Assembly (NCBI GenBank): GCA_000004985.1
Contig: GG738873.1
DNA length: 64,000 bases
Source of the DNA: Naegleria gruberi
Taxonomy: Eukaryota
Direction: 5' to 3' (one strand)
The position numbers and the translations under genes were made by a program. Position 1 is the first letter of the stretch; each line of letters begins with the position of its first letter. Shown piece after piece: positions 16,788-38,141 of the stretch. A model generated the notes under the pieces. The model did not search any database, was not told where the DNA came from, and worked only from the letters and a program-made list of their open reading frames with translations.

Positions 16788-17535
16788 TTAATTCCATACA
16801 GCATAACTATTAACCATAACATTAGGATCTGCATCATCATCATCAAATTCTGGCATAACATTTGTTGTTGTTGCTGTAGATGAGGACATTTGATCATCAG
16901 AAGAATTCATCTTATCAAACAAGTCATTCATTGCATCTTGTAAATCATCTCTGTTGTGGGCATAATCATAAACAGAATACTTGCTACTTCTCATCTTCTT
17001 TCTTCTGTAATACCAAATACCAGCAACAACGAATACCAATACTGTAACTATTAAAATAATTGCAACTGCACCAGAAATTGCTCCAGCAAGAATGGTTGTA
17101 ATATTGGAGGATTCCATGTTAGGTAATAAAGTGGCATGGGCAACACACTTTTGAACTTTACAAGCAGCCACAATATTGTACAAATCTGTTTCAATGTTAA
17201 TGGTTGGCTTATTTAGAATTTGAGTACAAGTTACACTACTTTCCAACCTTAATGTGTAATTATGAGAGAACTTTTCAATAAATTGAGGGTAAGTGATTGG
17301 GAGAATAAAAGAGTTAGAATTACAAATGGCATCTCCATTGCTGTCCTTGATTGTGTAAGAGAGAGTGGCTTTCCAATCCTTATAATCTTGAGAGGACCAT
17401 TCAGAATAATCTAATTGAGAGAAACTGTGTGTAACCTTCATATCTAACTTCATATTTTCACCTTCTTTAAAGTCACAACGAGTAGATATATTTTTGGTTT
17501 CAAATGAATGTACCCAAGTTACTTCAGAATAAAGA
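16788..17535 (-). CDS. 3' fragment (about 249 codons) of a type-I membrane protein, very probably the C-terminus of the giant EGF/LamG gene interrupted by the scaffold gap. It holds an extracellular Cys-containing segment, a TM helix and an 85-aa cytoplasmic tail.
   Basis: The reading frame of ORF 16788..17453 stays open upstream all the way into the N run (..LYSEVTWVHSFETKNISTRCDFKEGENMKLD..). The internal ATG chosen by the ORF track is therefore not the start. The TM helix is ILAGAISGAVAIILIVTVLVFVVAGIWYY, followed by RRKK and an acidic tail. It shares strand and orientation with the giant ORF on the other side of the gap. Confidence 0.55.
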
Positions 17536-19157
17536 NNNNNNNNNNNNNNNNNNNNNNNNNNNNNNNNNNNNNNNNNNNNNNNNNNNNNNNNNNNNNNNNN
17601 NNNNNNNNNNNNNNNNNNNNNNNNNNNNNNNNNNNNNNNNNNNNNNNNNNNNNNNNNNNNNNNNNNNNNNNNNNNNNNNNNNNNNNNNNNNNNNNNNNNN
17701 NNNNNNNNNNNNNNNNNNNNNNNNNNNNNNNNNNNNNNNNNNNNNNNNNNNNNNNNNNNNNNNNNNNNNNNNNNNNNNNNNNNNNNNNNNNNNNNNNNNN
17801 NNNNNNNNNNNNNNNNNNNNNNNNNNNNNNNNNNNNNNNNNNNNNNNNNNNNNNNNNNNNNNNNNNNNNNNNNNNNNNNNNNNNNNNNNNNNNNNNNNNN
17901 NNNNNNNNNNNNNNNNNNNNNNNNNNNNNNNNNNNNNNNNNNNNNNNNNNNNNNNNNNNNNNNNNNNNNNNNNNNNNNNNNNNNNNNNNNNNNNNNNNNN
18001 NNNNNNNNNNNNNNNNNNNNNNNNNNNNNNNNNNNNNNNNNNNNNNNNNNNNNNNNNNNNNNNNNNNNNNNNNNNNNNNNNNNNNNNNNNNNNNNNNNNN
18101 NNNNNNNNNNNNNNNNNNNNNNNNNNNNNNNNNNNNNNNNNNNNNNNNNNNNNNNNNNNNNNNNNNNNNNNNNNNNNNNNNNNNNNNNNNNNNNNNNNNN
18201 NNNNNNNNNNNNNNNNNNNNNNNNNNNNNNNNNNNNNNNNNNNNNNNNNNNNNNNNNNNNNNNNNNNNNNNNNNNNNNNNNNNNNNNNNNNNNNNNNNNN
18301 NNNNNNNNNNNNNNNNNNNNNNNNNNNNNNNNNNNNNNNNNNNNNNNNNNNNNNNNNNNNNNNNNNNNNNNNNNNNNNNNNNNNNNNNNNNNNNNNNNNN
18401 NNNNNNNNNNNNNNNNNNNNNNNNNNNNNNNNNNNNNNNNNNNNNNNNNNNNNNNNNNNNNNNNNNNNNNNNNNNNNNNNNNNNNNNNNNNNNNNNNNNN
18501 NNNNNNNNNNNNNNNNNNNNNNNNNNNNNNNNNNNNNNNNNNNNNNNNNNNNNNNNNNNNNNNNNNNNNNNNNNNNNNNNNNNNNNNNNNNNNNNNNNNN
18601 NNNNNNNNNNNNNNNNNNNNNNNNNNNNNNNNNNNNNNNNNNNNNNNNNNNNNNNNNNNNNNNNNNNNNNNNNNNNNNNNNNNNNNNNNNNNNNNNNNNN
18701 NNNNNNNNNNNNNNNNNNNNNNNNNNNNNNNNNNNNNNNNNNNNNNNNNNNNNNNNNNNNNNNNNNNNNNNNNNNNNNNNNNNNNNNNNNNNNNNNNNNN
18801 NNNNNNNNNNNNNNNNNNNNNNNNNNNNNNNNNNNNNNNNNNNNNNNNNNNNNNNNNNNNNNNNNNNNNNNNNNNNNNNNNNNNNNNNNNNNNNNNNNNN
18901 NNNNNNNNNNNNNNNNNNNNNNNNNNNNNNNNNNNNNNNNNNNNNNNNNNNNNNNNNNNNNNNNNNNNNNNNNNNNNNNNNNNNNNNNNNNNNNNNNNNN
19001 NNNNNNNNNNNNNNNNNNNNNNNNNNNNNNNNNNNNNNNNNNNNNNNNNNNNNNNNNNNNNNNNNNNNNNNNNNNNNNNNNNNNNNNNNNNNNNNNNNNN
19101 NNNNNNNNNNNNNNNNNNNNNNNNNNNNNNNNNNNNNNNNNNNNNNNNNNNNNNNNN
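17536..19157. other. Assembly gap (1,622 N) inside the giant gene
   Basis: Uninterrupted run of n. Flanking sequence on both sides is coding in the minus orientation. Confidence 0.95.
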
Positions 19158-22100
19158 TTTCTTTTGGTAAATCCAATGTTTGATGCAGTCTTCTTGATTA
19201 CATTCAACTTGATGAATGTATTCTTAACTGTATTCACAAGGTAAATAATATCGTCAACTTTAACAATACTGATCTTGTCAGAGTATTCGGAAAATTGAGA
19301 AATACTTGATGGGTAATTAGCAATTTGTTCAAACTTCATAGAATCTGTCCATAGATTGGTTTTGGAATCTTGTTGAGTAACATTTGCAATAAAGATCTTT
19401 GTTCCTTGATCAGTAATGGTGGCAATCAATATCTTGATACCTGAGGCTTCAGTAGCAGAGATTAGCGCTCTAGCGTTAGAAACTGCGTCCTTGTTTGGGA
19501 ATTCAACAGTTGATATGATTCTAACTCTAGCATCGAAGAAAATAAGGGTTGGTGTTAAGGTATATCTATTACTAGCTGTAAAGACAATTGAAGTAGTATT
19601 ATCAACAACAATATTCAAATCCTTAACTGTTTCTCTGTTGAATGTATGATTGTACAATCGTTTGTTGTCGTATAGGGTTGTCTTGATAATACTGTTTCCT
19701 GAGATATCTCTAGCAGATAAGGATTCATAGAATTCAATAGTAGTAACTGTAAAATTATTTGTGTTAATGGTAATACCATACAAAACAGAGTCCATAATAA
19801 AGATCTTATCAATTTGGTCTGCTTCAGTAAGGCTTGAAAGGTATTTCCAGTTTGAAATTGAGTCAACAATATCCATTTGTGTATAAATTAAAACTGAGAA
19901 ATCATCATAATTAATTACTGTAAAGTAATAAGTCCCATCAAATATTGTTGGAGTAGTAGATTTGATAGGAGATGAAGGTAAACCCAACTCGGAAAGTTTT
20001 TGGGAAGATATGACCACCAAATTACTGCATGCTACATCCATTACAATAATGTCAACCGATTTGGAAGTAACTGAAACAGAATTGACTGTAATATTGGAGC
20101 AAGACTTACTGCTGTCAAAATATTCACAATTCTTGCCGGTAAATTCTTGCTCACAAGAGCAAACATTAGGGAAAACACATACACCATGAGTGCTACAAGC
20201 ATCAGCCAAAGTCTTGTTAAAGCAAACAGGAATGGAACAATTTTCTCCTCTATAATCAGGCCTGCAAACACAAACATCTTGTGAGATACAAGTACCGTGA
20301 GCCGAGCAATTATTTCTATTGGCACAATCAAAGTATGAAGTAATGTTACATTCAATACCCTCGAATCCATAGTCACAAGTGCAATTGTTTGGAGCAGCAC
20401 AATATCCTCTATTACAAGCGTCCTTACCATACTTTTCGTAACAAATAACATACTGACATTCTTCTCCAGTATAACCTTCAGAGCATTTGCAATTATTGTT
20501 AGAAATACAAGCACCCCTGCCACTGCAAACTTGGCTATTATTGACAGATAAACCATAACAAGTATACCAATTACATGTATCAAAATCGTTACAAGTACCC
20601 TTCTTGGCACATACGTTTGGATCAGTGGCTGGTAGTCCATAACAAACCGGTGTAGAACAATTGGTTCCGATATAACCATTGCATTTACAATTGTCTGGAT
20701 AGGTACAATTTCCGTGTCCATTACAAACATTGGTTTCATTAGCTGGAATGTTATAACAAATAGTAAATTCACATTTTGGACCTGTAAAACCTTCACTGCA
20801 TTGACAGGTATCTGGCAAAGAACAAATACCACGACCAGTACAAACATTTTGAGAGTCTGAAGCATTAAAACCATAACAAATTGGAATGGAACAATCTTTT
20901 CCAACATAAGTTGAAATGCATAAGCATAAATCTGTATCGTTACAAATACCATGCCCATAACAAACAGTTGAATCATTTGAAAGAATGTCGAAACAATTTG
21001 AAACTTCACAAGCTGAACCAATGTATCCATTTGAACAAGTGCAATGGTTTGCATAATCACAGGAACCGCGATTGGAACAATCAGTAATATTGTTGACAAT
21101 ACAAGTCCAGTTTTGACAATTATTTCCAAAGTAGTTTGTTTCACATTCACAAGTATTATTGCCAATACATTTTCCTCTGGAGCTACAAACATCTGTTTCA
21201 TTACTTTCCACACCAAAGCAATGGTAGTATTCACAAACATCTGGTGCAATACATTTTCCAATTCTTCCACAAACAGTACTTGTATTAGATACCACACCAT
21301 AACAATTGGTAAGGGAACAGTCTGGAGCAAAGTACCCAACCTCGCATGTACAATTATTAGGTGAACCACAAATACCTCTTCCACTGCAAACTTCTGTTTG
21401 GGTGGAATCAAAGCCAAAGCAAATAGGAAGGGAGCAGCTTTCTCCATCATAAATAGGATCGCAAACACAAGTATCCTTATCCACACATAAACCATGTCCA
21501 GAACAAACATTTGAATCATTTGAAAGAATGTTGAAACAAATGGAAACTTCACAAGCATTACCGACATGTCCTTCTTCACAAACACAGTGATTTGCATAAT
21601 CACAGGAACCGCGATTGGAACAATCAGTAATATTGTTGACAATACAAGTCCAGTTTTGACAATTATTTCCAAAGTAGTTTGTTTCACATTCACAAGTATT
21701 ATTGCCAATACATTTTCCTCTGGAGCTACAAACATCTGTTTCATTACTTTCCACACCAAAGCAATGGTAGTATTCACAAACATCTGGTGCAATACATTCA
21801 CCAATTCTTCCACAAACATCTGGGTGAGTCAAACGTAATCCACCACAAGTTATAATTGAACAATCGACACCATCGGTATTGTTGTTACAAATGCAGGTAT
21901 CAGGAGCAACACAAACACCCTTAGAGCTGCAAACTCGTATGTCTGAAGAATTGAGACCAAAACACATAGGAATAGAACACACACTTCCAGTGAATGTGGA
22001 ATTGCAGCTACAGGTGTCATGAGAAATACATTCACCATTGTTGCTACAAACACCAGATTGGTTGGATAACAAACCATAACAAATTGGAACTTCGCAGTTA

Positions 22101-25100
22101 GAACCATAATAACCGTCATTGCAAACACAAACATCTGGTTCAGAACACAATCCGCTTGAAGAACAAACTGTTTGCTTGTCTGATGGAATTCCGTGGCAGA
22201 CAGGATATTGACATTCAGGACCACTGTATTGTGAAGTGCAATTACAAACGTTAACAGCAACACAATGACCATGACTATGGCAAGTACTGGAACTGTTGGA
22301 TGAAATATTAAAGCACTTATGGAACTCACAGTCAGAACCATCGTGTTCATTATCGCAAGAACAAGTGCTTTCAAATTCACAAACTCCAAAGCCACTACAG
22401 ACCGTTGTGTCATTACCTCTTTTACCATTACAAAGAACAAGGAAAATATCAGGCAATGCTTCACCCAATGAGAATTCTAAACTATACAAGGAGCCATCCA
22501 ATTTGGCATCAGAAACACCTGGTTCCGAACCAATTGTGTTTTGTTTTCCCTTGTTGAACACAGTATTTCTTATCCTCCAATCATCTAGCAAAGTTGAGTT
22601 TACTAGTTTTCTAGTACCATCAACAAACAGGCTAGTACCATGGTTTGTGCTCTTAGAGACAGCAACGGTGTGAATATTATTTTCAAAGGTATGTGGTATG
22701 TTGATATGGGATTCTAGACCATCTGACAAATTGAAACTTAATATCAAAGTGTTATTTTTGTAAACTAATTTCCAATCGGCACCACAAGCAAAATTGAATA
22801 GTGTATGAGTTTTTGAAGGAGAACCATTCATTTTGAATGTAAGAGAAACGGTAAAATTGTTAGAAAACCATCTATCGAATGGTTGATAAACTCCAAGCTT
22901 ACCAAGCACATCAGCCTGTCTTATTGAAAGGGAGATATTTGAGGAGGTAGTCACTTCAGTGCCGTACCCATCAGTAGTGTTGTCGTAAGCCACTGCAACG
23001 ATATCATTGTCAGAACCATTTCCAAACACATATTTTCCTTCGACATATATTGACGAGTTGAAAATTATTGTCTTGTACATAGGTTCCTTTGCTGATAATT
23101 TACAGTCATCACCAAAATAAGGACTGGTACAAACACATGTGTCAACATCAATGCAAGCACCATGATTGGAACAAACTTTTGCTGTGTCGTTAGCATACGC
23201 ACCAAAGCATCTTGGAATTTCGCACCAAGTACCAATCCAATCTTTCTTAAGGTTAGGGTCTGTAGCGTTTGTAGGGTTACAAATGCAATTATCAAGGGAG
23301 TCACATTTTCCATGGGCACTGCAAACTTTTATCAGATCGGTATTTAGAATGTTATTACAAAAATGATATTCACATTTTTCACCAGTGTATCCAGTCTTGC
23401 AAAGACAAGTGTGATTATTAGTGCACTCACCATGTTTACTACAAGCAACGTCGTAGGTTTCATTATGGCATTTAGGCTTAGAACAGTAAAGATCTGTCCA
23501 CAAGTCTTCGCAAGTGCAGTTATTCTTATTATGACAAGTACCGTGACCATTACAAACGAATGTACTGTTGGTGTTCATTATATTATTACAAGTAAAGTCT
23601 TGGCAATACTCTCCATAATAATCGCTAAAGCAGTCACATTTGTTGTACTCAATGCATTTACCTCCTTCATCTTTCTTTTTAAACGAACATTGCACGTTAT
23701 TATCGGAAGAAAATGGAATTCCAAAACAAACAGGACCTTCTTGGTCATAACGGCTTTGTAAACTTTGAGGACTATTCTCAATAGAGATGGTGCTATTGAT
23801 AGTCAAAGAGCTAAGTACAGCAGCATCAAACCTCAGGTTGGATATGCTTCCCATAAAGTATGATTCCCTTGTACTTGGATTATAGCCAATCGCTGACATT
23901 ATATGAATATCAATAGTACGTCTCCAAGAGTAGGTTGTATCAGTGTCCACAAAGCAAGTAGAGAACTCATTGTTAAAACAAACTGAAAGTCCGTTACTGG
24001 TAGAATCTTTAGTGACAGAAACAAAGTAGTATCTATTATATTTCAATAAGTTGCTAACCGATCTAGTTGTGTATTGATCAGTTAGAGACAGTGTAAATCC
24101 ATCAATGGATTCAGTTGCAACTAGCTGCCAGTAGCTTGGAGATCCCATGTAAATAACTGTTTGGGAAGAATTTCCATCCTTCTTTTCTTTCTTCAGCCAC
24201 AAAGTAACGGTGAAATCGTTGTGGAAGAAAACCATGTTTGAATCATGGGCAATGTCAATCTTTGATGATGATCCATCAAAGTAAATACCACTTCTATTTG
24301 AGTTTAACCCATTTGTAGTAATACAATTTTCGCACTCCAATTCTTCGTTGCAATACTTGGATTTTAGACTGTCTGTTTCTTGAACGAGATGTCCTCTTAT
24401 GAATGTCGAATAACCTTGTGTAGTCAAGTTATTGAAATCATACACTTGACTTGTGGCAACCAAGCTGCAATCATCAGCAACATATCCCTTCTTACATTCA
24501 CAATTGTCTGTATATACACAAACACCATGTCCAGAACAAACGTCGGAAGACAATGTAGAAATACCGTAACAGGTAGTGTAGTCAGCAAAATCTTGAATGG
24601 CCTGTTTATCTGAAAAGCCTCCTGCAACAAGAGCAATGAACTTGAAGAAACCATTCAAGGAAGTAGAATTAACATTGTTAAAACCGAAATAAGTTTCTGT
24701 TACCGCTACTAGACTTGTAGTTGATGACAATCTTACAGATGGTAAACCATTGATATAAATGGTAACACCTCTCTGCTTTGACTTTACAAGCGTTACAACC
24801 ACAACAGAGTTGTCAGAAGGTACAACATTATTGTCTGTTTCCACTGTTTCAATTTCAGATTTGTTACTGTTCAAATAGCCAATATATCTAATCGAATTGA
24901 GTGGAGTCTTTTCCAAGAAGAAATTTGATGAGACTATTGGCTGGGCTTGGGTAGATGTATTATCAAATGAAAGTACTATTGTAAATGAAAATTCAGTTTT
25001 GATATTGAAAGGAGAGTTTAAATAAGGTGTAAAGTAGCTATTTTCTCCGTTAAATATAGCACCCTTGTTGTTTGTTATGGTTGCATTGTTGATTATCATT

Positions 25101-28100
25101 TGGAAGAGACTGTCTCGGTCAATTACTACTTTGTCCTCAAGGATTGCTTTTGGGTACCCTATTGGTTGGTCAGCAAGAGCAAAAACAATTCTGTCTCCAT
25201 CTCTTAGCGAAACAGAGGAAATAGACAATTTTGGTAATGTTGAAAGTAAATTACAGAATGGTGCACAGGACAGGGTTGGTGTTGAATTTGTGCTTGAAAA
25301 GAAATCTGATGCATTATCAGTTGTACAGACACCATCAGTAGTATTGCATGTGGTCTTACTTGAATCTACTTGACAATTGGATCCAACGTAAGGAGTTTTG
25401 CATTCACATTTATCTGGAGCAGAACAATATCCTTTACCTGAGCAAACTGTTTTTTCATCTTCAGCTGAAACACCAAAACACAACGGAGTTTGGCACTCTT
25501 CACCAGTGTAATTACCATTACAGACACATACATTTCCACCAAAGCAAACTCCATTATGGCTGCACACAGAACTTTCAAGTTGGGAAATTCCAAAACATGT
25601 AAACAAACTAGTATCCACCCCAGAATAGTTGATTGGATCTATTCTGATAAGGATGAGAGATTCTAAAGTTCCGTTCAAATAAATAGGCAAGTCATTCACC
25701 AAGTCATAACCCACAAAGCTTTCACTTGTCAAAGAAGGATTTAAGGCTAGGAATTCTGGAACACCTCCAAAGAGTCCAAGAGGATTACCGTTTACCAGAA
25801 CAGTTGTCACGTAACTTTTAACAACATTTACATGGTACAGTAAACCAGTGTATGGAATGGCATCCTCTACGGTTAAGGTAATTGGCGATAGAGATGTTTC
25901 ACTAATTCCTTGGATAACAAGAGAAGACCCATCCAAAAAGACTTTCCAGTAGCCTCCATCTTTGAGACTTATGATTGGTTGGATTCCTCCCAAAGATTGA
26001 AGTCTAATATCAAAAGACAAACTAAAGTCATCAGAAAACAAGGTCAAAGGAGACGGATCTTCCAAAATATCGAAGATGACAGATGATTTACCAAATTGTA
26101 AATAACCATTGTTATCAAAAGAAGGATTCTCCACCATTAGGTTAACATGATAAGCTAAATCAAGCAATATTCCGTACATAGGGGCATTAATATCGAAAGA
26201 GTGTGTCAAATTCGAATTTACCACCAATGAGGTATTGTAAGAGATGAACTTGGAGTGTGGTGTATAAACCAAACGATAGTATGGATTTTCTTCCAATGTG
26301 GTTGTTTGGGTAGTCTTAATTTTTTCAATGTAAGAGTTGTCAACTTGACAGTTATTGCCGGAATACCCTACTTTACATTTACAAAAGTCTGGTTTAGTAC
26401 AAGTTCCCTTTCCAGAGCAAACATTCTTATCTTGTGATTGAACTTTGAAACATATTGGGTACTTGCAGTTAGTTCCATAATAACCAACTTTACAAGTGTT
26501 AACAGTGGTATTGACCACACTTGGCTTTGCAGTTGGGTTTGTCGATAATCCACAAAACATGGCTTCAGCGGTAGTTTTTGTATTGTTACAATCAATACCA
26601 ACCTCTATCGTTCCATTGTTAGTCTTATTCAAGTAGTTACTTGGATCATCTAGAGTACAATTAGGATTTCCTTTACATAGAGTGTTTGTAACATCAATAG
26701 AACAGTTTGCTCCAATAAATCCAGGATTACAGGCACATGTATCAGGTGCCTCACAAAGTCCTTTACCAGAACAAACTCTCTTATCATCCGAAGCAATACC
26801 AAAACAAACTGGAGTAGAGCATTTAGAGCCAGTATAATTAGAATTACAGGAACAAACATCCAAACCATAACATTTACCATGGCCATTACAAACTGATGGT
26901 TCAAGTAAAAATGTACCATCACAAGTAAATGCTCTATCAAGTATGTCAGTTGGTGATTGTGGTGTTGAAGCAACAACTATCTTACGTATTTGACCCATAA
27001 AATGTGATTCCTTTCCATCCACAAAGTTATAGCCTATTCTTGCACCCATATCTTTACCTGCCATTGTATTCTTATAGTCTCTACTGAATACAGAGGTGAA
27101 AACTTCCTTATTATTTACAACAACAGATGTACCACTTATGGACGATTTGGTGATTAATATAGAGTAGGGCACATGTTCTACCTCTATTACATATGGAATT
27201 GATATTACTTCAGGTTTTATCAACTCTTTGGTATTACCTTCAATAAACAACACACGGTCAAGCAAGTAAATGTTAAAAGCTGCAACATCAGAAACGAAAA
27301 GTATAGGACTAATTGCTTCGAAACTGTCAATTGTCAGATCTATGTAAATAACGAAATCGTTGATGAATGGGACAAACAGTTTTGAGGTTGGGATGTCCAT
27401 TTTTGCAAGTTTGGGAACAATATAGCTGGCACTATCCACGGACAAGCCTGAAATTTGAACAGTTGTTGAATTTCTAAGTTCAACTAAATTACCAGTTTCG
27501 TCTAAATAAGCTTTGTGAAGCATAAACCTGATGTACGGAATTGTATTATTGCTACTGTCAGGAAGATTAGTTTTTGTAAGGTTATTTGCGGTTAAGTTGT
27601 TGTTTGTAAAGTTACTACTTGTAACATTGTCAAATGTGAAATTGCCCCTACTATTTGTATAGTTATTATATGTGAAATTACCAATTGTAATATTATTGCT
27701 TGTAAAGTTACTAATTGTAAAGTTACTAATTGTAATGTTATCACTCGTAAGGTTACGGATTGTTAAATTAGTATATGTGAAATTACCAATTGTAATGTTA
27801 TCACTTGTAAAGTTACTATTTGTAAAGTTACCAATTGTAATATTATCACTCGTAAGGTTAGTGTTTGTAAAGTTACTGCTTGTTGAATTAGTATATGTGT
27901 AATTACCAATTGTAATATTATCACTTGTAAAGTTACTATTTGTAAAGTTACTGATCGTTAAATTAGTATATGTGTAATTACCACTTGTGGTATTCTCATA
28001 TGTAAAATTATAATAGGTAAAATTGTTGAGTGTCAAATTCGGTATTTCCGTAATTCTCATCACCTCGTTTTCTGGATAATTTGCATCATTTTGGCAATTT

Positions 28101-31100
28101 TGTCCCGTAATAGAATTTCTAAAACATTTACAAAAATCAGGCTTGGTACAATTACCATTTCCACTGCAAACAAGTGGATCTTCTGATTTAACACCAAAAC
28201 AAATTGGTAAAGAACAATTTGATCCATAATATCCTTCTCTGCAAGTGGTTACATTTAAGAGACCTGTTGCATTCTTCTTGGAGCAAAGATACAAATTATC
28301 ACCTGTTGGGTTTGTACAATCAATTTCAAGATCAAGAGTTCCATTAATCTTTGTATTATTACATTTACCTTCAGGATTGGTACATGTCGCCATACTAACA
28401 TTTGTTTGACACTGTGTGCCAATAAAACCAACTTTGCAAGAACATTGATTTGGTTTCTCACAATAACCATTTCCTGAACAAACCTTAGAAAAAGTGGCAG
28501 GAATATTAAAACAAACTGGAATATTGCAGATTGAACCAATGTAAGTGACATTACAGATACAATTATCATAACCAACACATTTACCATTACCACTACAAAC
28601 TTTTGGTGAGGTCATAGATATATTTGCACAGGTGAAAGATTTGTCATTCTTTGGAGGATATTGCGGATCTTCAATAGGTGGAAGATTATCATTGAGTGCA
28701 ATTTCAATCAAATCTAAAGTTCCTGAAAATCCAATAGTGGATCCATCATCCAAAATATCAAAACCAATGTAGCTGTCTCTATTTTGATTCAATGTATCAA
28801 TATAATCATAACTGAAAACACTATTATAACAACGTTTGTTGTTGATGTATACTTGTGTCCCCATTGATTTTGATTTCATTATGAATACATCATAAACCTG
28901 ACCTATTAACTCAATTTCATTTGGTACAGAGATTATATAAGGAAGAGGAGAATCTAAAATACTGGCCTTAATAACCAATGTCGTTCCTGTCAAATAAATA
29001 TTGAAAGAGGCACCACTTTGTATGTTCATGATAGGATTGTATGATTTAAACTCTGTTGGTGAAATTGAGAATGAAACGTAAAAGTTGTTGGTAAATAAGT
29101 AAAGAATTGAAATGACATTGTTGGTATTCAATATTATTTGAGTTCCATCTTTGAATGAAATTATGTTATCTTGATCAATTACCAAATTCTTTACAAGTAC
29201 CTTCATTTCACTTCCAAGCTCTTCAATATACATATTACCATCAATGTCTGGTTCACTTATATAAAGAGGATCAATAACAAGTCTAAAACTAGTAAGGTTT
29301 TGTTTCAATTCATTTTGTAAATTAGTAATATTTTGTAGTAATTCAATATTTACACCACAATCTAATCTTGTAAATGTTGAATTAAAACATTTACAAAAAT
29401 CAGGCTTGATACAATTACCATTTCCACTGCAAACAAGTGGATCTTCTGATTTAACACCAAAACAAATTGGTAAAGAACAATTTGATCCATAATATCCTTC
29501 TCTGCAAGTGGTTACATTTAAGAGACCTGTTGCATTCTTCTTGGAGCAAAGATACAAATTATCACCTGTTGGGTTTGTACAATCAATTTCAAGATCAAGA
29601 GGTGTATTAATAGTTGTACAGTTACCTTCAGGATCCATACATGTTGTCATAGAAAGGTCTGTTTGACATTGTGTACCAATAAAACCAACTTTGCAAGAAC
29701 ATTGATTTGGTTTCTCACAATAACCATTTCCTGAACAAACGTTAGGTAAAGTTGCCGGGACAGTAAAACAAACTGGTATGTCGCAATATTTACCAATATA
29801 AATCCCATTACATTCACACAAATCATTACCATAACATTTTCCATTGCTATTACATGCTTTTGGTGATGTCAAGTAAATACCATTACAAGAGTAAGCAAGT
29901 TGGTCGTTCACAATTGCTAATATTTGTGAGTAATTATTACTACCTATTTTGGACATTTGGATATCATCAATAGTGCCAGAAAATGTGATTTTGTTACCAT
30001 CTTTAAAATCAATACCAACATAACTATTGGCAGTTTTGTTAGAAAGTGAGGTCAAAAAGCTGTAACTGAAAACACTATTGTACTCCTCATGTCCATTAAT
30101 ATAAACTTGAGTTCCGTCTTCAAATGATTTCATAATCAAAACAGAATATTCAATGTTAGTGAATTCAATACCATTAGGAACTAGCTGTACTATTGGATAG
30201 GGGAATTCTACAGTCAAGCCTTCAATGGCTAAAGTTGTGCCCATCAAGTAAATACTGAAGCAGGCCCCACTAGTAATATTCATTATTGGATTGTAGTCTT
30301 TGAATTCAGTAACCACAATCTTGAAGGAAATGTAAAAATCATTGGTGTACGTGTATAAGGGAGAAATAGTATTGTATGTACTGATGATTAAACCACTTCC
30401 GTTTTCGAAAGAAATTGTACCATTAGAGACAACAATGTCAACAACGGTAATCTTTAAAGATCCACCCAATTCCTCTAGCACAGCAGTGTCTGTATCAACA
30501 GCGAGCAATTTTCTTCGAGTACTAAACTTTTGACTGCCAGAGCTTGGATAAGTGGTATTTTTTACAAATGTTGGGCTAACTTTTAATCTAAAACTATAGT
30601 CAGGATATTCTGTTCTCATGTTGTACTGGATTTTAATCAACTCTTTAATGTATTCGTTATCAACACCACAATCTCTTCTAGAGAACGTTGAGTTATAACA
30701 ACGACAATAATCAGGTTTTGTACAATTACCATTTCCATTGCAAACAAGTGGATCTTCTGATTTAACACCAAAACAAATTGGTAAAGAACAATTTGATCCA
30801 TAATATCCTCGTGGGCAAGGGTTACCGGGCAATAAAGGTAACGCAACAGATTTACCACCACAAAGATAAATTTCTGTATCAGTTTGTGGATTGGAACAAT
30901 CGTATTCGTTAATATATTTTCGAGTTCTAAAATACTTTGTTGGGTCATTTGCAAAACAATCACCATTTACGTCTGTGCAAGTTGTTGCACTTAGATCTGT
31001 TTGGCATTGTTCACCAGCATATCCAACCTTGCAAGCACAAAAACCTGGTTTCTCACAGTGTCCATTTCCAGAGCAAACCTGAGAACAGTCAGCGGAAATA

Positions 31101-34100
31101 CCAAAGCAGACTGGAATATCACAATTTGATCCTGTGAAGTTTCTGTTGCATTCACAAACGTTATTACCATAGCATTTACCATTAGAATTACAAACTTGAG
31201 GGGATGTCAAGTAAATTCCTGCACAGAAGTGTCCCTTATTCTCTCTGAGTAAATTAGCTACTTCAACCGAGGATAATCCGAGGTTGCTGCCGATTTGAAT
31301 ATCATCAATATAGCCATTTAAACTTATTTTATGGCCTTCCTTAATGTCAAATCCAATAAAACTATCAGCATTTTGTTGGGGTAAAGTAACAACAAAGTCA
31401 TAGCTAAATGGAGTAGAATACCTCAATACCCCATTAACAAATACTTGAGTACCTGTGCTAGTTGATTTGGTTATTAATATTGAATATATCTGATTTTCAA
31501 CTTCAACTTCTCCATGAACAGAAATAATGAACGGGGAAAGTTCAATTGTATGGCCTTCAAAAACCAATGTGGTTCCAATTAGATATATGCTAAATGAAGC
31601 CCCACTAGTAATGTTCATGATAGGATTGTAATCAGTAAATTCTTCAATTATCAATTTGAAAGATATATAGTAGTCATTAGTAAATAGATATAAAGGGGTA
31701 ATGTTTGTCTTTGTGTGCATTATGACCTCAGTACCATTACGGAAAGAAATTGAATTATTATTCAAAACAAGGTTATTGATTTGGATAGTCATATTACCGC
31801 CCAGTTCTTGCAAATATTTCTTGTCAGCAGTAGTGAACATAAAGTCCGAACTAAGTTTAAGTCTGAAAGAATAGTTGGTATCGTTGGCCTTCAAAAGTTG
31901 TTGAATAGTGTATAATTCTTGTAAAAAGGTAGCATTATTACCACAGTTTTGTCCGCTTATGGAGGATTCAAAACATTTGCAAAAATCAGGCTTAGTACAA
32001 TTACCATTTCCATTGCAAACAAGTGGATCTTCTGATTTAACACCAAAACAAATTGGTAAGGAACAATTTGATCCATAATATCCTTCTCTACAAATACTGA
32101 CATTGCTAAAAACAGGAGATCCAACCAACATTGTTTGCCCACAAGCATAAATGTCTTGACTATTTTTGCAATCAGGTGAGCTGGAGGTAAAATTCAAGCC
32201 CTTACTTGCAATGTAATTAGTGGCATTGTTGGAAGCACAATTACCCTCTGGATCTGTACATGTTGACTTAATTAGTTCAGTTTGGCATTTAGACCCTACA
32301 AACCCAACATTACACTCACAGATGTTTGGCTTTATACAAACACCATGTCCTGAACATACACCGGCATCATTGCTAACTATATTGAAACACATTGGAAGAG
32401 AACAAGAAAGTCCTGAATAGTTAGAGTTACATATACAAACATCAAAGCCGTTACAAACACCATTTCCGTTACATACTTTTGTCGAATTCATGTGAATTCC
32501 GTTACACTTGAAAGCACCTCCAATTGCAGCAATATTGGTAATTTCAGACTCTTGCATTCCGTAAACTCCAAAAATCATGAGCTCGTCTATGTAACCATGA
32601 GAAGGAGAAAAACCAACAGAACTGTAGGTGTTTTGAGATTCGTTCACAGAAATGTAATCATCATAGTGTTCAAATATATAATCTGGAGTAGACTTTCCAT
32701 CCAAGTACACTCTGGTACCTAAAGAGCTTGATTTAACAACCAAAATCTTGTACCATTTGTCTAAAGTTTCAATCATCGGTGTCAACAGCGTTTGCTCTTG
32801 CACCAAATTTGTCTGGGTTCCATTTATATATAGTTTAGTTCCTTGTAAGTAAAGGAACCAGTTAGCAAGATTGTTGATTGAAATAATATGTTTAACAGTA
32901 TTGTCTATACTGGTAAGGTAAATCTTGAAAGATATTGCAAAGTCATTCACTGTCCTTCTTGTTAAAGCACAAGGAACATTTGAATCTAACATTGATTTAT
33001 CATTTGCTGCAAGTTGATGAAGAGAAGTGTTTGTTTGTGAGGAAATTGCAAAACCCATAGAATAGGTTTCTTGTCCACAGGTGGACAGCTCTTCATAGGC
33101 AGCATTTGTATAGTTTGAATCAATTTGACAGTTGTGACCATGGAAGCCAGAATAACATAAACAAAAATTCTTATATTTACAACTTCCATGCCCACTACAA
33201 ACATTATGATCTTCCTGTTTAACTCCAAAACACATTGGCTTGCATCTATAGGTAACATTAGGGTCTTGATAATAGCCTTCTTCACATACTGTGATATTAT
33301 AAGTTGTATTTGCTGTTATGTGAGCATCAAGAATTAGCTGTTTACAAGCTGCACTGGGAGCGACAGAGGATAAACATTCTTGAACTGTTTGATCTACAAC
33401 AGTATCAGGTTTTACAAAGCCATTTGGAAACTCAATTGGATTATAAGCTCCAGTTTCGTTTATCACACTTAGGTTGTTATGGATAAAAAACGCTTGAGGA
33501 TCTACACTATCCACAGCAGTTCCATTTTCATTGTGAACATATAAAATTGCATTATTGATTTGACACTCCAATCCTGTGAAAGAAAGGTCACATTTGCATT
33601 CATCGGTACTATGACAATCACCATGGCCTGAACAAACAGAAACGTTAGTTGCCGAGACGTTGTGGCAAAAAGGAACTTGGCAATTATTACCTTCACTATA
33701 AACACACTCACATAAATCTCTACCTAAACATAATCCTTTTCCTGAACAAACAATTGGACTATCATATCTAATACCATTACAATACCAAAGAGAAGATATT
33801 TCTTCAGTCATATTATAGGAAAACCAAAGAAGTTCAATATAGCCTTCCAATGCCAAGTCGCCAACATAACTTTCACCCTTAGTGTTGGTAACAAGATCCT
33901 CAGTAATGGTAGTGTCATTAAAAATGACATTACTATCAATAGAAATAGTTAAACCTCGTTCTGATGATTTGGTAATTTGAAATTCGTATAAATGATTTGG
34001 TAAAATGAGAGAAAGGCCTAATATAATAGTTTTTGATTTGAGTGATCCTTGCTTAGTTTCAAATATTAAATCATTTCCATTAGTAGAAAGTTTCCAACCG

Positions 34101-37100
34101 GCAATGTTATTCAAGTCTAGCAAAGTTTGGTTTCCATCTAAGGTGAAAAATAACACCCTAACAGTAACTTGGAAATTATTGTAGAGAATGATATATGGTG
34201 AGTTAGTGTTACCACTTGCCAGTGTTGCCCTCAAGCAGCCCTTATTATCACTAGCCGATTGATAGTCTTTCAAATTGTACATTGCATCCAATCCTCGAAC
34301 CTCAGCACCTAACATATATTTGTTGTCGAATATATTACGCAAGCTGAACGATTCTCCGTATGTTGCGATTATGGATTCAAAAATAGTGTCTTTGATTGCG
34401 CAATTGGACCCACTGTATCCAAAATCACAAGTACAGTTATTAAGACCATCACATTGTCCGTGACCACTACAAACTTCAGAAGTGTTGCTACCTATTCCGA
34501 AACATGTTGTATTTTCGCATTTATCTCCAGAGTAACCATCTTTACATTCACACAAGCTTTCACCGATGCAAATGCCTCTATTGTTGCAAACTGTTGGGTT
34601 TTTATCTCCATGGCAACCCACAGCACTATAAAAACCTTTTTTGAGGTGATAATCCTGATAGTCAAAAAAGGCAATAGCAACATTGTCTACAAGTCCATTA
34701 AGGTAACTGTCACCTCTGATACTCATACCAATAGTAGAACTCTGTGTTTGGTTTTGTCTTTTGTTAAACTTTGAGGTAAAAGTAGAATTAATATACACGT
34801 CTGTTGTATTAGCAACAAGCTTCAACCCTTGAGACGAGCTTTTCACAAGGGCCAAATAGAAAGGATAAGTGCTGACACTATATTGTGAGACAATTACTGA
34901 GTCGTCATATAATTTTAGTTTCAAAATGTTGTCAGTGTCAACAAATAATTCCCATGTTGTATCATCATCGTTGAACACAATGGTTTGGCGAGAACCTAAT
35001 ACATTCATCTTAAGCCAAAAGGCAACAGAAAAATCATTCGAAAGGCTAGTGAACATGGAGTATCCTGAGAATACAGAGTAGGATTGGCCAGAAAGGAGCA
35101 AAGCACTCCCCCCACCAGGTAAAAAACTGTTGGTGTAGCTTGCATTGTAAAACACAGAAGTGAAGTTGTAATTCTTGTCTAAAAAGTACATTCTATTTGG
35201 GCCAGTTGAGATAGGATTATTAAAATCATAAAAAGTAATTTTAGATGGTGATCTTTGGGTTTCCTTTAGATACTTCAAATAAAAATCAGTTCTGGCAAAA
35301 GAGAAGGCACAAACAGAAAATTCTGCAGTAAGAAAATCTCCAACAGATTGACAAGGTACGGGGTCATTGGATGAGGAAGGCAATGTGCCACCTAGTGAGT
35401 AACCAGAACTAGATTGGCTATCATCGAATTGTTGAGAGCAACCACCCTGTAAGTTTAGTGGACAAATTGGCTTGGAACCATTCAAGTCCAACTCCAACAG
35501 TTTTTCACATTCTAAACCTTCATAGTTAGGGTTACAAGTACAATTATCGTAGTTAACACATTTACCTCTACCACTGCAAACATCAGAGCTGTTGCCATTA
35601 ATTCCGAAACAAGTGTATATGGGGAAATCGCAAACTGTAGCATGATATGGTTCAGAGCATCTGCACTCATCAGAACCAATACAAATACCATTGTAATTAC
35701 AGTACTTATCAGCTTCCATTTGTTCTATTCCTTGACATTGCCATTCTCGTTCAATATCTCTCAACACAATGGATGAAGAATTGAATTTCCAAATTATTAA
35801 CCTGTCCAGAACACCTTCGAAGAAATTACCTTTTGTTTGAGGGTTGACCCCAATTGTGGAGTTATCTGCCTCAATACTCGGATCTACCAATTTGTGAAAA
35901 TCTTCGACTCTTTTATAATCATAAATTGCAATTTTACCATTGACTTCAATCGTTAAGCCATCCAAAGAGCTCTTCTTGATGTAAATATCATAATCGCCAA
36001 TTTCATCATTTTTTGGAGGTATTGACTCAGATTTGTGAGTAATAATTTGTACCTGTGCATTATTTGCATTGTGGTTTGTTGATTGGAAAATAAACTCCCT
36101 CTTATTGGACATTAATAATCTCCAGTATGAACCATCAGAAACATGGATTATTTCGTGATATATTGTTTCAATAAATTGTGCCACCGTAGAAGATCTAATT
36201 TTAAGGTTCAACACAAAATTATTTCTTAAATGTCTGAAAGGAGAGTTATTGCCGGATATGTCAATGAAATTTTTTCCGTCTAGTTTGAGAAAACCACCAA
36301 TATCACTTTGCACATCTCCAACCATAGAAAAATTACAATTACCTCTTAATTCTCCCAAAGAATCGTTGTAAGGCAAGTATTTGCGATTGAACATCCACTT
36401 GAGAGTATAACTATCTCCAAATATTGTTTGGTTAACTGTAGTTGGGATGAGCAAGAAACTACAATTGTTACCATAATGGAGATTGTCACAGAGGCATGAA
36501 TCTGTGTCAACACAAGTACCAAATCCAGAGCAAACCGCTTGTTGGGTAGATTGTATTCCAAAACAAGTTGAAATTGAACAATCAGGTCCAAGGTATTGTG
36601 GAAGACATTCACACAAGTACTCCCCAACACATTCACCTCCTCTACACAAATCTGGGTTATTAACAAACAAAGAATTATGGCAACCATGACCTTTCCATTT
36701 CATCTTCGTTAGCAAACGGTTAATTGAGAGGTTATCAACCCCAGCATAAAAGAAAGCATAAAATTCATCAAGATATCCATGAAATTGACCAGACATAGAA
36801 TTTAAATCATAACCAATAGAGCTTCTTTGAGAATTAGAGGAACTGGGTCTAGTATTTGACGAAAAGGAACCAGTTATATCTACCCTTTGCAAACATTGTT
36901 TTCCATCGATGTAAATACGTAATCCAGTAACAGAAGATTTGGAAATAAAAACATGGCTAAAAGAGCTAGTTAGTTTCTCGACAGTGTCAAAACAACGTGA
37001 ACCACAAATTTCAACTCCATCAACGTTGACACAAAGCTCAGGACTTCCTTCTAACAGTTTAAGAATAAGGTTCCATTTTGTTACTGTATAGTTTACAGAT

Positions 37101-37981: not shown

Positions 37982-38141
37982 TTTTTGTTGTGAAGGAAGC
38001 AAAGTTTGCAAACAACAGCTTGATTTACGCCGTAAATAAACTGTAGAGATACAGTAAACCTGTACAGCCACAGTAAAAGGGGTAACACCAGAGTGATTTA
38101 TTACATACAGAAAGAAAATACATCAAGCGTGTTCCGGTAGA
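37982..38141. promoter_or_regulatory. Short (160 bp) divergent intergenic region between the ATG of the giant gene (minus) and the ATG of paralog A (plus); putative bidirectional promoter with a TACAG motif cluster
   Basis: Start codons lie at 37981 (minus) and 38142 (plus). The element ctgtagagatacagtaaacctgtacagccacagtaaaagg at 38041-38080 contains three TACAG copies. Confidence 0.45.

What the first reader, a model, noticed from the sequence alone, without database searches (positions are those of the whole stretch)
27560..28040. Coding minisatellite producing a pure N-glycosylation sequon array (NFT/NIT/NLT/NYT)
About 480 bp of short (21-63 nt) imperfect DNA repeats translate on the coding strand into more than 30 consecutive N-x-T/S sequons: ..NFTNSNFTSDNITIGNFTYTNLTIRNLTSDNITISNFTISNFTSNNITIGNFTYNNYT... 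This looks like a hyper-glycosylated mucin-like stalk embedded in the giant adhesin. Seen on the wrong strand it could be mistaken for a spacer-repeat array. Repeat-number variation here would change stalk length.
Basis: seen in the sequence. Interest (0 to 1): 0.5.

Follow-up and report, generated by a model that had tools for sequence, protein, structure and literature searches.

The report
Asn-x-Thr pentapeptide repeat glycosylation array
A giant surface protein of the amoeba Naegleria gruberi contains 32 back-to-back five-residue units that each spell an N-glycosylation site (Asn-x-Thr); this is most likely a sugar-coated spacer, and its backbone also fits the pentapeptide-repeat beta-helix pattern. 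It is an interesting curiosity rather than a breakthrough.

Summary
Window 27551-28039 (minus strand) lies in frame inside a 6850-codon ORF. It encodes 32 units N-Phi-T-x-x: 26 in perfect register, a 2-residue insertion, then 6 more. That gives 31 N-x-T sequons; composition-matched shuffles average 14 and never exceed 24. The DNA period is 15 nt, not 21-63 nt, with later duplications of 75-120 nt.

The Asn and Thr codons are invariant at their first two bases, while the third base of Asn is T17/C15. Selection therefore acts on the amino acids. The host is Naegleria gruberi NAEGRDRAFT_58267, a type I membrane protein built of EGF and LamG modules. The array is extracellular and takes the place of a linker of about 25 residues seen in three paralogous modules. 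Outside the array, N-x-T is 2.6-fold enriched and N-x-S is not.

"Mucin-like" does not fit: one Pro, 29% hydrophobic residues. The unit matches the pentapeptide-repeat consensus x-[D/N]-[L/F]-[S/T]-x. The best PDB and library hits are pentapeptide-repeat proteins, but Pfam thresholds are not met and the conservation pattern is the reverse of that family.

Best reading: a densely N-glycosylated spacer on a pentapeptide-repeat-like backbone. Actual glycosylation, fold and length variation between isolates are untested.

The parts
27551..28039 (-). The whole array, aa 3345-3507 of the ORF: 32 units N-Phi-T-x-x carrying 31 N-x-T sequons
27650..28039 (-). 26 consecutive pentads in perfect 5-residue (15-nt) register
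27644..27649 (-). Two-residue insertion (Arg-Gly) that shifts the register. AF2 confidence falls from this point on.
27554..27643 (-). Six further pentads; the last, NLPDS, is degenerate and is not a sequon
28094..28243 (-). EGF-like module just upstream of the array (CREGYYGSNC...GQNC). It is a near-identical copy of the EGF of the preceding paralogous module. DNA homology to the paralogues ends at 28095-28120, 55-80 nt before the array.
26882..27529 (-). LamG-like (concanavalin-type) domain just downstream of the array. Assigned by alignment to the LamG parts of paralogous modules; boundaries are approximate.
16791..38071 (-). Host gene, Naegleria gruberi NAEGRDRAFT_58267: a giant EGF + Laminin_G_3 type I membrane protein, interrupted by the assembly gap 17536-19157
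37820..37891 (-). N-terminal hydrophobic segment (aa 61-84), probably a signal peptide or signal anchor
   Evidence: Kyte-Doolittle mean up to 2.2; the function is inferred
17007..17093 (-). C-terminal transmembrane helix (ILAGAISGAVAIILIVTVLVFVVAGIWYY), followed by an RRKK cytoplasmic tail

Best explanation
The array is a translated, extracellular run of 32 five-residue units N-Phi-T-x-x. It lies in the ectodomain of a giant type I membrane protein of Naegleria gruberi, between an EGF module and a LamG domain, where three paralogous modules have only a linker of about 25 residues.

What selection preserves is the N-glycosylation sequon itself: Asn and Thr are invariant, and Ser is never used. 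As the chain enters the ER, oligosaccharyltransferase most likely glycosylates many of the 31 N-x-T sites. The result would be a glycan-clad, protease-resistant, stiff spacer that sets the distance between neighbouring domains, an N-linked functional analogue of a mucin stalk.

The backbone has the pentapeptide-repeat pattern x-N-[F/L/I/Y]-T-x. It could coil into a quadrilateral beta-helix where occupancy is low.

The array grew by slippage or unequal exchange in multiples of 15 nt.

Shown: frame, periodicity, selection on N and T, extracellular position, sequon enrichment, similarity to pentapeptide repeats.
Inferred: glycan occupancy, spacer function, mode of expansion.
For: In frame in a 20-kb ORF.

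N 32/32 and T 31/32, with the Asn third base T17/C15 and the first two bases of the Asn and Thr codons invariant. Column entropies there are 0-0.2 bit, against 1.1-1.7 bit in codons 4 and 5.

31 sequons against 14.2 expected and a maximum of 24.

Thr only, never Ser. NXT is the efficient acceptor for closely spaced sites, and NXT sites with two spacer residues are fully glycosylated in human cells (PMC6761772).

Outside the array, N-x-T is 102 against 39.7 +/- 5.4 expected, while N-x-S is 52 against 53.

The ectodomain location follows from the EGF and LamG domains, the hydrophobic N-terminal segment and the C-terminal TM helix.

N. gruberi has a near-complete ALG/OST set (PMC4973528).

The array replaces a short linker found in paralogous modules.

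Duplications at lags of 5, 7 and 8 pentads show growth in 15-nt multiples.

An analogous NFTQS array of about 30 units lies between Sushi domains of a sponge protein.
Against: There is no experimental evidence of glycosylation or expression.

A hydrophobic residue at position 2 in 30/32 units, plus frequent I/Y at position 4, is odd for a solvent-exposed glycosylated linker and suggests a folded core. However, most single-base neighbours of TTT encode hydrophobic residues, so part of this is mutational neighbourhood.

The best sequence and structure matches are folded pentapeptide-repeat beta-helices.

Full occupancy would be sterically incompatible with that fold, so the two aspects of this explanation cannot both hold at their extremes.
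Confidence: 0.55

Rival explanations
1. A true pentapeptide-repeat domain. [quoted passage not shown] The N-x-T sequons are largely a by-product of the A-[D/N]-L-[S/T]-x consensus and are glycosylated sparsely or not at all.
For: 26 units without any indel. phmmer against PDB puts the designed consensus pentapeptide solenoids 4YC5/5DRA first (E = 8e-8), in register with N on D/N and Phi on L. Of 1039 library hits with E < 1e-3, most of the 150 listed are canonical ANLTx proteins. All 33 comparators taken from them pass Pfam Pentapeptide. AF2 with that alignment gives pLDDT 69.6, pTM 0.64 and a 20-residue strand periodicity. Apart from one alpha-1,3-glucanase (rank 46), all 50 listed Foldseek PDB hits are pentapeptide-repeat proteins or domains; one is NleL at 1.2 A rmsd over 103 columns, and one is SV2A. 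SV2 shows that a luminal, glycosylated pentapeptide-repeat domain exists in eukaryotes (PMC8145042).
Against: Pfam thresholds are not met: Pentapeptide_4 scores 18.2 bits against a 38-bit cut-off, and PF00805 and PF13576 give no hit. The inward-facing i-2 position is S/T in only 14/32 units and G/N/D/R/E/Y in the rest, and i+2 fits the consensus in 0-7/32. Conservation is inverted: the outward N and T are invariant, while the putative core positions vary. D never replaces N, and S, R and others never replace T, which the fold would allow. Single-sequence AF2 failed at pLDDT 46. The better model used an alignment made of pentapeptide-repeat proteins, so the test is circular. The N-x-T enrichment elsewhere in the protein points to glycosylation.
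Confidence: 0.3
2. A neutral low-complexity expansion. A 15-nt coding minisatellite expanded recently in a tolerant interdomain linker and has no specific function. The N-x-T pattern is only inherited from the founder unit.
For: It sits in a linker that is short in the paralogues. Blocks of 105-120 nt are 83-92% identical. No orthologue carrying the array was found. Similar simple arrays occur sporadically in unrelated eukaryotic gene models.
Against: Units are only about 66% identical at the DNA level, yet four nucleotide columns (AA of Asn, AC of Thr) are invariant or nearly so in 32 units, while the synonymous third base of Asn is fully randomised at T17/C15. That pattern needs purifying selection on the amino acids.
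Confidence: 0.1
3. An unglycosylated beta-solenoid that displays ordered Thr/Asn ladders as a binding surface, for ice, carbohydrate or mineral, as in insect and bacterial antifreeze solenoids.
For: Resemblance only: regular T and N rows would line every face of a solenoid. Two of the pentapeptide comparators weakly hit Pfam CfAFP.
Against: The array itself gives no CfAFP hit. It passes through the ER of an organism with a full OST, so free Asn ladders are unlikely. There is no ecological rationale and no cysteine or T-x-T pattern.
Confidence: 0.03
4. Not translated: a frameshift, intron or assembly artefact, or a non-coding spacer-repeat array read on the other strand.
For: An assembly gap lies elsewhere in the gene. 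There are no expression data.
Against: The ORF runs 20 kb without interruption through the array. The other five frames have 4-42 stops. Flanking domains on both sides are in the same frame. The NCBI model includes the array. The context is eukaryotic, so CRISPR biology does not apply.
Confidence: 0.02

Closest known systems
Pentapeptide repeat proteins (Pfam PF00805/PF13599; MfpA, Qnr, Np275/276, Rfr32; designed 'beta1' solenoids 4YC5/5DRA)
   Same: Strict 5-residue period over at least 8 contiguous units. Asn at i-1, a large hydrophobic residue (F/L) at the centre, and Thr at i+1. These are the best sequence hits in PDB and in the 1.84-billion-protein library, and an AF2 model resembles their beta-helix.
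   Different: Fails the Pfam gathering scores. The i-2 position is not Ala or another small aliphatic residue in more than half of the units. I/Y is frequent at i+2. The outward N and T are invariant while the core positions vary. Extracellular in a eukaryote rather than cytoplasmic in a bacterium.
SV2A/B/C luminal domain 4, a glycosylated pentapeptide-repeat beta-helix (PMC8145042; PMC4885069)
   Same: A pentapeptide-repeat segment in the luminal or extracellular part of a eukaryotic membrane protein that carries N-glycans. SV2A appears among the Foldseek hits at rank 50.
   Different: SV2-LD4 has about 5 coils with a few sequons. Here nearly every pentad is a sequon (31 of 32). No homology is shown.
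Sycon ciliatum LOC135821185 (XP_065190326.1): an NFT[QR][SN] array of about 30 units between Sushi domains
   Same: An N-F-T-x-x period-5 array of similar length, inserted between extracellular modules of a large multidomain protein; 52% identical to the array here.
   Different: The units are much more uniform, and the array passes Pfam Pentapeptide (104 bits). The protein architecture is unrelated (LRR, Sushi). The similarity is almost certainly convergent.
Mucin-like PTS stalks (O-glycosylated tandem-repeat spacers)
   Same: A tandem coding repeat in an ectodomain that probably carries dense glycan and acts as a spacer. Its length can change by repeat gain or loss.
   Different: N-linked sequons rather than clusters of Ser/Thr/Pro. 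One Pro, 29% hydrophobic residues, strict register.
Beta-solenoid antifreeze proteins (e.g. CfAFP, PF05264)
   Same: Short repeats with regularly spaced Thr or Asn that would form surface ladders.
   Different: No profile hit for this array. Different period and cysteine pattern. Secretory-pathway context with sequons.

Membership tests
Pentapeptide repeat proteins (PRP) | At least eight contiguous five-residue repeats (PMC8145042) | tested here: met
   26 contiguous units without an indel, then 6 more after a 2-residue insertion
Pentapeptide repeat proteins (PRP) | Consensus A(D/N)(L/F)XX: D/N at i-1 and L/F at the centre | tested here: met
   i-1 is N in 32/32. The centre is L/F in 21/32, or 30/32 if I/Y/V are counted. 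i+1 is T in 31/32. The register agrees with the phmmer alignment to 4YC5.
Pentapeptide repeat proteins (PRP) | Small or aliphatic inward-facing residue at i-2 (A/C/S/T/V/L/I), and G or a polar residue at i+2 | tested here: not met
   i-2 fits in 14/32 units (S9, T5); the rest are N5, G5, D5, Y, E, R. i+2 fits in 0/32 (Vetting 2006 consensus) or 7/32 (Zhang 2019 consensus); I8 and Y6 are common.
Pentapeptide repeat proteins (PRP) | Pfam profile match above the gathering score (PF00805, PF13599, PF13576) | tested here: not met
   Only Pentapeptide_4, 18.2 bits against a 38-bit cut-off, E = 0.0027. No family at E <= 0.001 for the 181-aa segment, while 33/33 comparators pass.
Pentapeptide repeat proteins (PRP) | Right-handed quadrilateral beta-helix, four repeats per coil | tested here: inconclusive
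   AF2 single sequence gives pLDDT 45.8. With an alignment of PRPs it gives pLDDT 69.6 and 20-residue periodicity, and the Foldseek hits are PRPs. That alignment biases the result.
Pentapeptide repeat proteins (PRP) | Core positions (i, i-2) are the most conserved and the outward positions are variable (my recollection of the family; not stated in the passages of PMC8145042 that I read) | tested here: not met
   Here N (i-1) and T (i+1) are invariant, while i and i-2 vary.
Eukaryotic N-glycosylation acceptor sites | N-x-S/T with x not Pro | tested here: met
   31 N-x-T sequons in 163 aa
Eukaryotic N-glycosylation acceptor sites | The segment is exposed to the ER lumen (secretory or ectodomain topology) | tested here: met
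   Hydrophobic N-terminal segment at aa 61-84, cysteine-rich EGF and LamG domains on both sides, and a single C-terminal TM helix followed by a basic tail. The topology is inferred, not measured.
Eukaryotic N-glycosylation acceptor sites | The organism has the ALG/OST machinery | not tested
   Taken from the literature: the N. gruberi row of the table in PMC4973528
Eukaryotic N-glycosylation acceptor sites | Glycans are actually attached (occupancy) | not testable with these tools
   Needs PNGase F / Endo H treatment and glycoproteomics
Mucin-like (PTS) domain | Pro/Thr/Ser-rich, low-hydrophobicity, disordered composition | tested here: not met
   P 0.6%, T 22.7% at one fixed position, S 11.7%, F+I+Y+L+V 29%
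Mucin-like (PTS) domain | Tandem repeats whose copy number varies between alleles | not testable with these tools
   The tandem structure is shown. No second N. gruberi allele or orthologue was found.
   Contiguous 15-nt units without spacers, inside a eukaryotic ORF

The most novel reading that the evidence does not exclude
A natural N-linked 'bottle-brush' module. In this reading a pentapeptide-repeat-type scaffold has had its two outward-facing positions fixed as Asn and Thr, so that almost every 5-residue unit carries an N-glycan. It would be a previously undescribed class of extracellular spacer, an N-glycan counterpart of mucin domains. It would have arisen independently at least twice, in Naegleria and in the sponge Sycon, and would vary in length in 15-nt steps.
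Probability: 0.25. Interest if true: 0.55.

Novelty: new variant of a known kind. Interest (0 to 1): 0.35.

Why it matters
If the sites are occupied, this would be one of the densest natural N-glycan arrays known: about one glycan per five residues over 160 residues. It would be a ready-made natural model for three questions: how oligosaccharyltransferase handles closely spaced NXT sites, how dense N-glycans stiffen a chain, and whether a pentapeptide-repeat beta-helix can fold when glycosylated.

It also shows that the pentapeptide-repeat consensus and the sequon overlap. Pentapeptide-repeat segments that enter the secretory pathway are therefore automatically potential glycan carriers.

For Naegleria biology it marks a giant, probably heavily glycosylated surface protein whose public gene model is truncated.

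It does not open a major unsolved question. Its value is as an unusual, testable structural and glycobiological case.

Tried and rejected
- Word-indexed homologue search with the array alone gave nothing.
- The same search with 601 aa around the array gave only EGF-level hits of 26-43% identity over 11-39% of the query, the named one from Naegleria lovaniensis. No orthologue was available to compare array length.
- Exact-protein look-up of a neighbouring gene found nothing on record.
- A metagenome scan for a 28-nt flank of the array gave no match, so there was no second allele.
- Single-sequence AF2 gave pLDDT 46 and was unusable.
- A literature search for 'pentapeptide repeat' plus 'sequon' returned 0 papers. 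Cui et al. 2009 (PMC2726397) is not held.
- No tRNA genes in the window.
- I looked for a fixed higher-order period, for example 4 pentads per coil. None exists; duplications occur at lags of 5, 7 and 8 pentads.
- Spacer-repeat, CRISPR-like and non-coding readings were rejected.
- I rejected using the hydrophobicity of position 2 as strong evidence for a folded core, because 7 of the 9 single-base neighbours of TTT encode F, L, I, V or Y. The second base of that codon is only moderately conserved, T in 27/32.
Full report

Yes. The finding lies inside the only long ORF of the region, 17519..38071 on the minus strand, 6850 codons (translation).

The array spans aa 3345-3507, window 27551-28039. 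It consists of 26 five-residue units in perfect register, a two-residue insertion (RG), and six more units.
- Position 1 is Asn in 32/32 units.
- Position 3 is Thr in 31/32.
- Position 2 is F13, L8, I5, Y3, V1, plus one T and one S.
- Position 4 is mostly S, I, Y or N.
- Position 5 is mostly S, N, G, T or D.

There are 31 N-x-T sequons. Shuffles of the same residues give a mean of 14.2 and at most 24 in 10,000 trials. The frame has no stops; the other five frames have 4 to 42. No other run of this type exists in any frame of the window.

Tandem Repeats Finder gives a base period of 15 nt (20.3 copies, 67% matches), with overlapping higher-order periods of 60, 75, 105 (92% over 1.9 copies) and 120 nt. 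A lag analysis shows elevated identity at 5, 7 and 8 pentads and no fixed superperiod.

**2. Selection acts on the amino acids, not on the DNA repeat.**

Across the 32 units, the first two bases of the Asn codon and the second base of the Thr codon never vary, and the first base of the Thr codon varies once. These columns have entropy of 0-0.2 bit. The synonymous third base of Asn is T17/C15, the full 1 bit. Codons 4 and 5 have 1.1-1.7 bit at most positions. Units are only about 66% identical to each other.

This is purifying selection on Asn and Thr, and it argues against a neutral young minisatellite.

The second base of codon 2, which specifies hydrophobicity, is T in 27/32 units. That is intermediate conservation. 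Seven of the nine single-base neighbours of TTT encode F, L, I, V or Y, so I treat the hydrophobicity of position 2 as only weak evidence for a buried core.

**3. Host protein and organism.**

An exhaustive phmmer search of 1.84 billion representative proteins returned a 5396-aa protein that is 100% identical over the array. It is XP_002676246.1 / NAEGRDRAFT_58267 / D2VHZ3, a 'predicted protein' of Naegleria gruberi.

Neighbouring ORFs encode BTB, DEP-RGS and several RCC1+Kelch proteins, consistent with a eukaryote.

Pfam finds many teneurin-type EGF repeats and Laminin_G_3 domains along the whole ORF.

The NCBI model begins at ORF residue 1022, inside a LamG domain. The same frame continues upstream for 1021 residues with EGF and LamG hits, and it includes a strongly hydrophobic segment at aa 61-84.

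The C-terminal 207 residues of the NCBI model map to window 16791-17411, beyond the assembly gap 17536-19157. They contain a single TM helix (17007-17093) followed by RRKK and an acidic tail.

The protein is thus a giant type I membrane protein, and the array is in its ectodomain. 'Adhesin' is plausible from the domain content but is not shown.

**4. Position within the modular architecture.**

The motif GYYG[ST]NC marks repeated EGF-EGF-LamG modules at aa 1997, 2422, 2859, 3280 and 3863. In three paralogues the last EGF is joined to the LamG part by a short linker, for example 'NATFLQELYTIQQLLKANDT'. In the module at aa 3280 that place is taken by the array.

The EGF just upstream of the array is 100% identical at the DNA level, over 165 nt, to the EGF of the preceding module. 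The two modules are 87.7% identical over 495 nt. This DNA homology ends 55-80 nt before the array.

The array is therefore an insertion or expansion in an interdomain linker of a recently homogenised module. The paralogous linker contains NIT and NLT triplets, which could have seeded slippage. That last point is inference.

**5. Evidence that the sequons matter as sequons.**

- Outside the array, the ectodomain has 102 N-x-T against 39.7 +/- 5.4 expected from composition. N-x-S is 52 against 53.5 +/- 6.7. Selective enrichment of N-x-T in secreted proteins is the signature described by Cui et al. 2009 (PNAS 106:13421). I cite that paper from its entry in the reference list of PMC5562741 and from my own knowledge, because the paper itself is not held.
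- The array uses Thr in all 31 sequons and never Ser.
- According to PMC6761772, summarising Shrimal and Gilmore 2013, even adjacent NXT sites can be glycosylated by the human STT3A complex. Reporters with two or three NXT sites separated by two spacer residues, exactly the spacing here, are fully glycosylated in human cells, while NXS sites are more prone to skipping.
- N. gruberi has a nearly complete set of ALG and OST components (table in PMC4973528).

Occupancy itself cannot be tested with these tools.

**6. Evidence that the backbone is pentapeptide-repeat-like.**

N-Phi-T-x-x, read as x-N-Phi-T-x, is the pentapeptide-repeat motif A(D/N)(L/F)XX, or [S,T,A,V][D,N][L,F][S,T,R][G] (PMC8145042).

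Supporting results:
- phmmer against PDB puts the designed consensus pentapeptide solenoids ('beta1', 4YC5, 5DRA, 4YEI, 4YFO) first, at E = 8e-8. Asn aligns to D/N and Phi to Leu. Natural pentapeptide-repeat proteins follow at weak E-values.
- In the large library, 1039 proteins score E < 1e-3, and most of the 150 listed are canonical ANLT[GDRE] proteins.
- Of 33 matched segments that I extracted, all 33 pass Pfam Pentapeptide, Pentapeptide_3 and Pentapeptide_4.
- With those segments as the alignment, AF2 gives mean pLDDT 69.6 and pTM 0.64. Residues 20-100 score about 80, strands recur every 20 residues (four units per coil), and confidence drops from the RG insertion onward.
- Foldseek against PDB returns pentapeptide-repeat structures almost exclusively: designed solenoids, Np275/276, QnrB1, MfpA, AlbG, HetL, NleL at 1.2 A over 103 columns, and SV2A at rank 50.

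Contrary results:
- Pfam thresholds are not met. Pentapeptide_4 scores 18.2 bits against a 38-bit cut-off, and PF00805 is not reported.
- The inward-facing i-2 position fits the consensus in only 14/32 units, and i+2 in 0-7/32.
- Single-sequence AF2 failed, with pLDDT 45.8.
- The better model is circular, because its alignment consists of pentapeptide-repeat proteins.
- As I recall the family (this is not stated in the passages of PMC8145042 that I read), the core positions are its most conserved ones; here they are the variable ones, and the outward positions are invariant.

I therefore say that the array works like, and may fold like, a pentapeptide repeat. I do not file it as a member of the family.

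**7. Weighing the two readings.**

A beta-helix of 8 coils would be about 4 nm long. This assumes a rise of about 4.8 A per coil, which is established geometry of the family and comes from my own knowledge. An extended glycosylated chain of 163 residues would be tens of nm long.

On a beta-helix, Asn residues on one face would be stacked 4.8 A apart, too close for a glycan on every rung. Full occupancy and the compact fold therefore exclude each other.

The following favour glycosylation as the selected property:
- invariance of N (never D) and of T (never S, R or E);
- exclusive use of the efficient NXT form;
- protein-wide N-x-T enrichment;
- co-translational access of OST to the unfolded chain.

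I give about 0.55 to a densely N-glycosylated spacer on a pentapeptide-like backbone. I give about 0.30 to a folded pentapeptide-repeat helix with sparse glycans. Neutral expansion gets about 0.10. A small remainder covers a Thr/Asn-ladder binding surface or an untranslated artefact.

**8. 'Mucin-like'?**

Only in the functional sense of a glycan-bearing tandem-repeat spacer. The composition does not fit a PTS domain: one Pro, 29% F/I/Y/L/V, and Thr at a single fixed position.

**9. Comparisons elsewhere.**

Period-5 N-x-T arrays occur in other eukaryotic secreted-protein models.
- The sponge Sycon ciliatum LOC135821185 has about 30 NFT[QR][SN] units between Sushi domains. That array passes Pfam Pentapeptide at 104 bits, and two transcriptome contigs stop at its first unit.
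- Fish models carry NVTID, NATVD and NATLE arrays. Some of these may be annotation artefacts.
- A metagenomic 3281-aa protein combines Pentapeptide, Laminin_G_3 and NHL domains.
- The SV2 luminal domain is the characterised precedent for a glycosylated pentapeptide-repeat helix in the secretory pathway (PMC8145042; PMC4885069).

I found no paper linking pentapeptide repeats with sequon arrays.

**10. Verdict.**

Novelty: a new variant of known kinds, namely a pentapeptide repeat fixed as a sequon array, or equivalently an N-linked counterpart of a mucin stalk.

Interest is moderate to low (0.35). It is a neat, testable oddity in an unstudied Naegleria surface protein, and it does not resolve a major open question.

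Noticed in passing
window 19160-37981 (-), the ectodomain outside the array: N-x-T sequons are 2.6-fold over-represented (102 against 39.7 +/- 5.4 expected from composition), while N-x-S is at expectation (52 against 53). This is a protein-wide signature of selection for efficient N-glycosylation sites.
   Followed up: partly
window 35008-38071 (-): The public gene model XP_002676246.1 starts at ORF residue 1022, inside a LamG domain. The same open frame continues 1021 residues upstream with EGF and Laminin_G_3 hits and a hydrophobic segment at aa 61-84 (37820-37891). The annotated N-terminus is therefore probably truncated.
   Followed up: partly
window 17536-19157: A 1622-nt run of N (assembly gap) lies inside the gene. 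The NCBI model bridges it as if it were an intron, so part of the membrane-proximal ectodomain is unknown. The TM helix and cytoplasmic tail are at 16791-17411.
   Followed up: yes
window 28172-28336 vs 29435-29599; 21041-21253 vs 21584-21796: Internal blocks are 100% identical (165 nt) and 98.6% identical (213 nt) at the DNA level between EGF modules of the same gene. This indicates recent duplication or gene conversion. Homology to the preceding module stops 55-80 nt before the array.
   Followed up: partly
window 38658-40976 (+), 52653-55130 (-), 56078-58750 (-), 41452-43086 (-): A cluster of three paralogous RCC1-like + Kelch ORFs and one Kelch-only ORF surrounds the giant gene.
   Followed up: no
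P0011 / P0159 (Sycon ciliatum LOC135821185), aa ~1886-2063 of P0011: A sponge LRR/EGF/Sushi protein carries about 30 NFT[QR][SN] units between Sushi domains and passes Pfam Pentapeptide. Transcriptome contigs of the same cluster end exactly at the start of the array. This looks like a convergent counterpart.
   Followed up: partly
P0009, P0014, P0015, P0031 (fish and frog gene models): Very long, uniform N-x-T period-5 arrays (NVTID, more than 70 units; NATLE and NATVD, about 30-35 each; NITII, about 17) are attached to otherwise ordinary proteins: an O-acyltransferase-like protein, an alpha-2-macroglobulin-like protein, an unnamed Boreogadus saida product, and P0015, whose source I did not look up. 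They could be real glycosylated tails or microsatellites mis-called as exons.
   Followed up: no
P0023 (metagenomic, 3281 aa): This protein combines Pentapeptide repeats, Laminin_G_3 and NHL repeats. It shows the same pairing of a pentapeptide-type segment with LamG_3 domains in a giant protein of unrelated origin.
   Followed up: no
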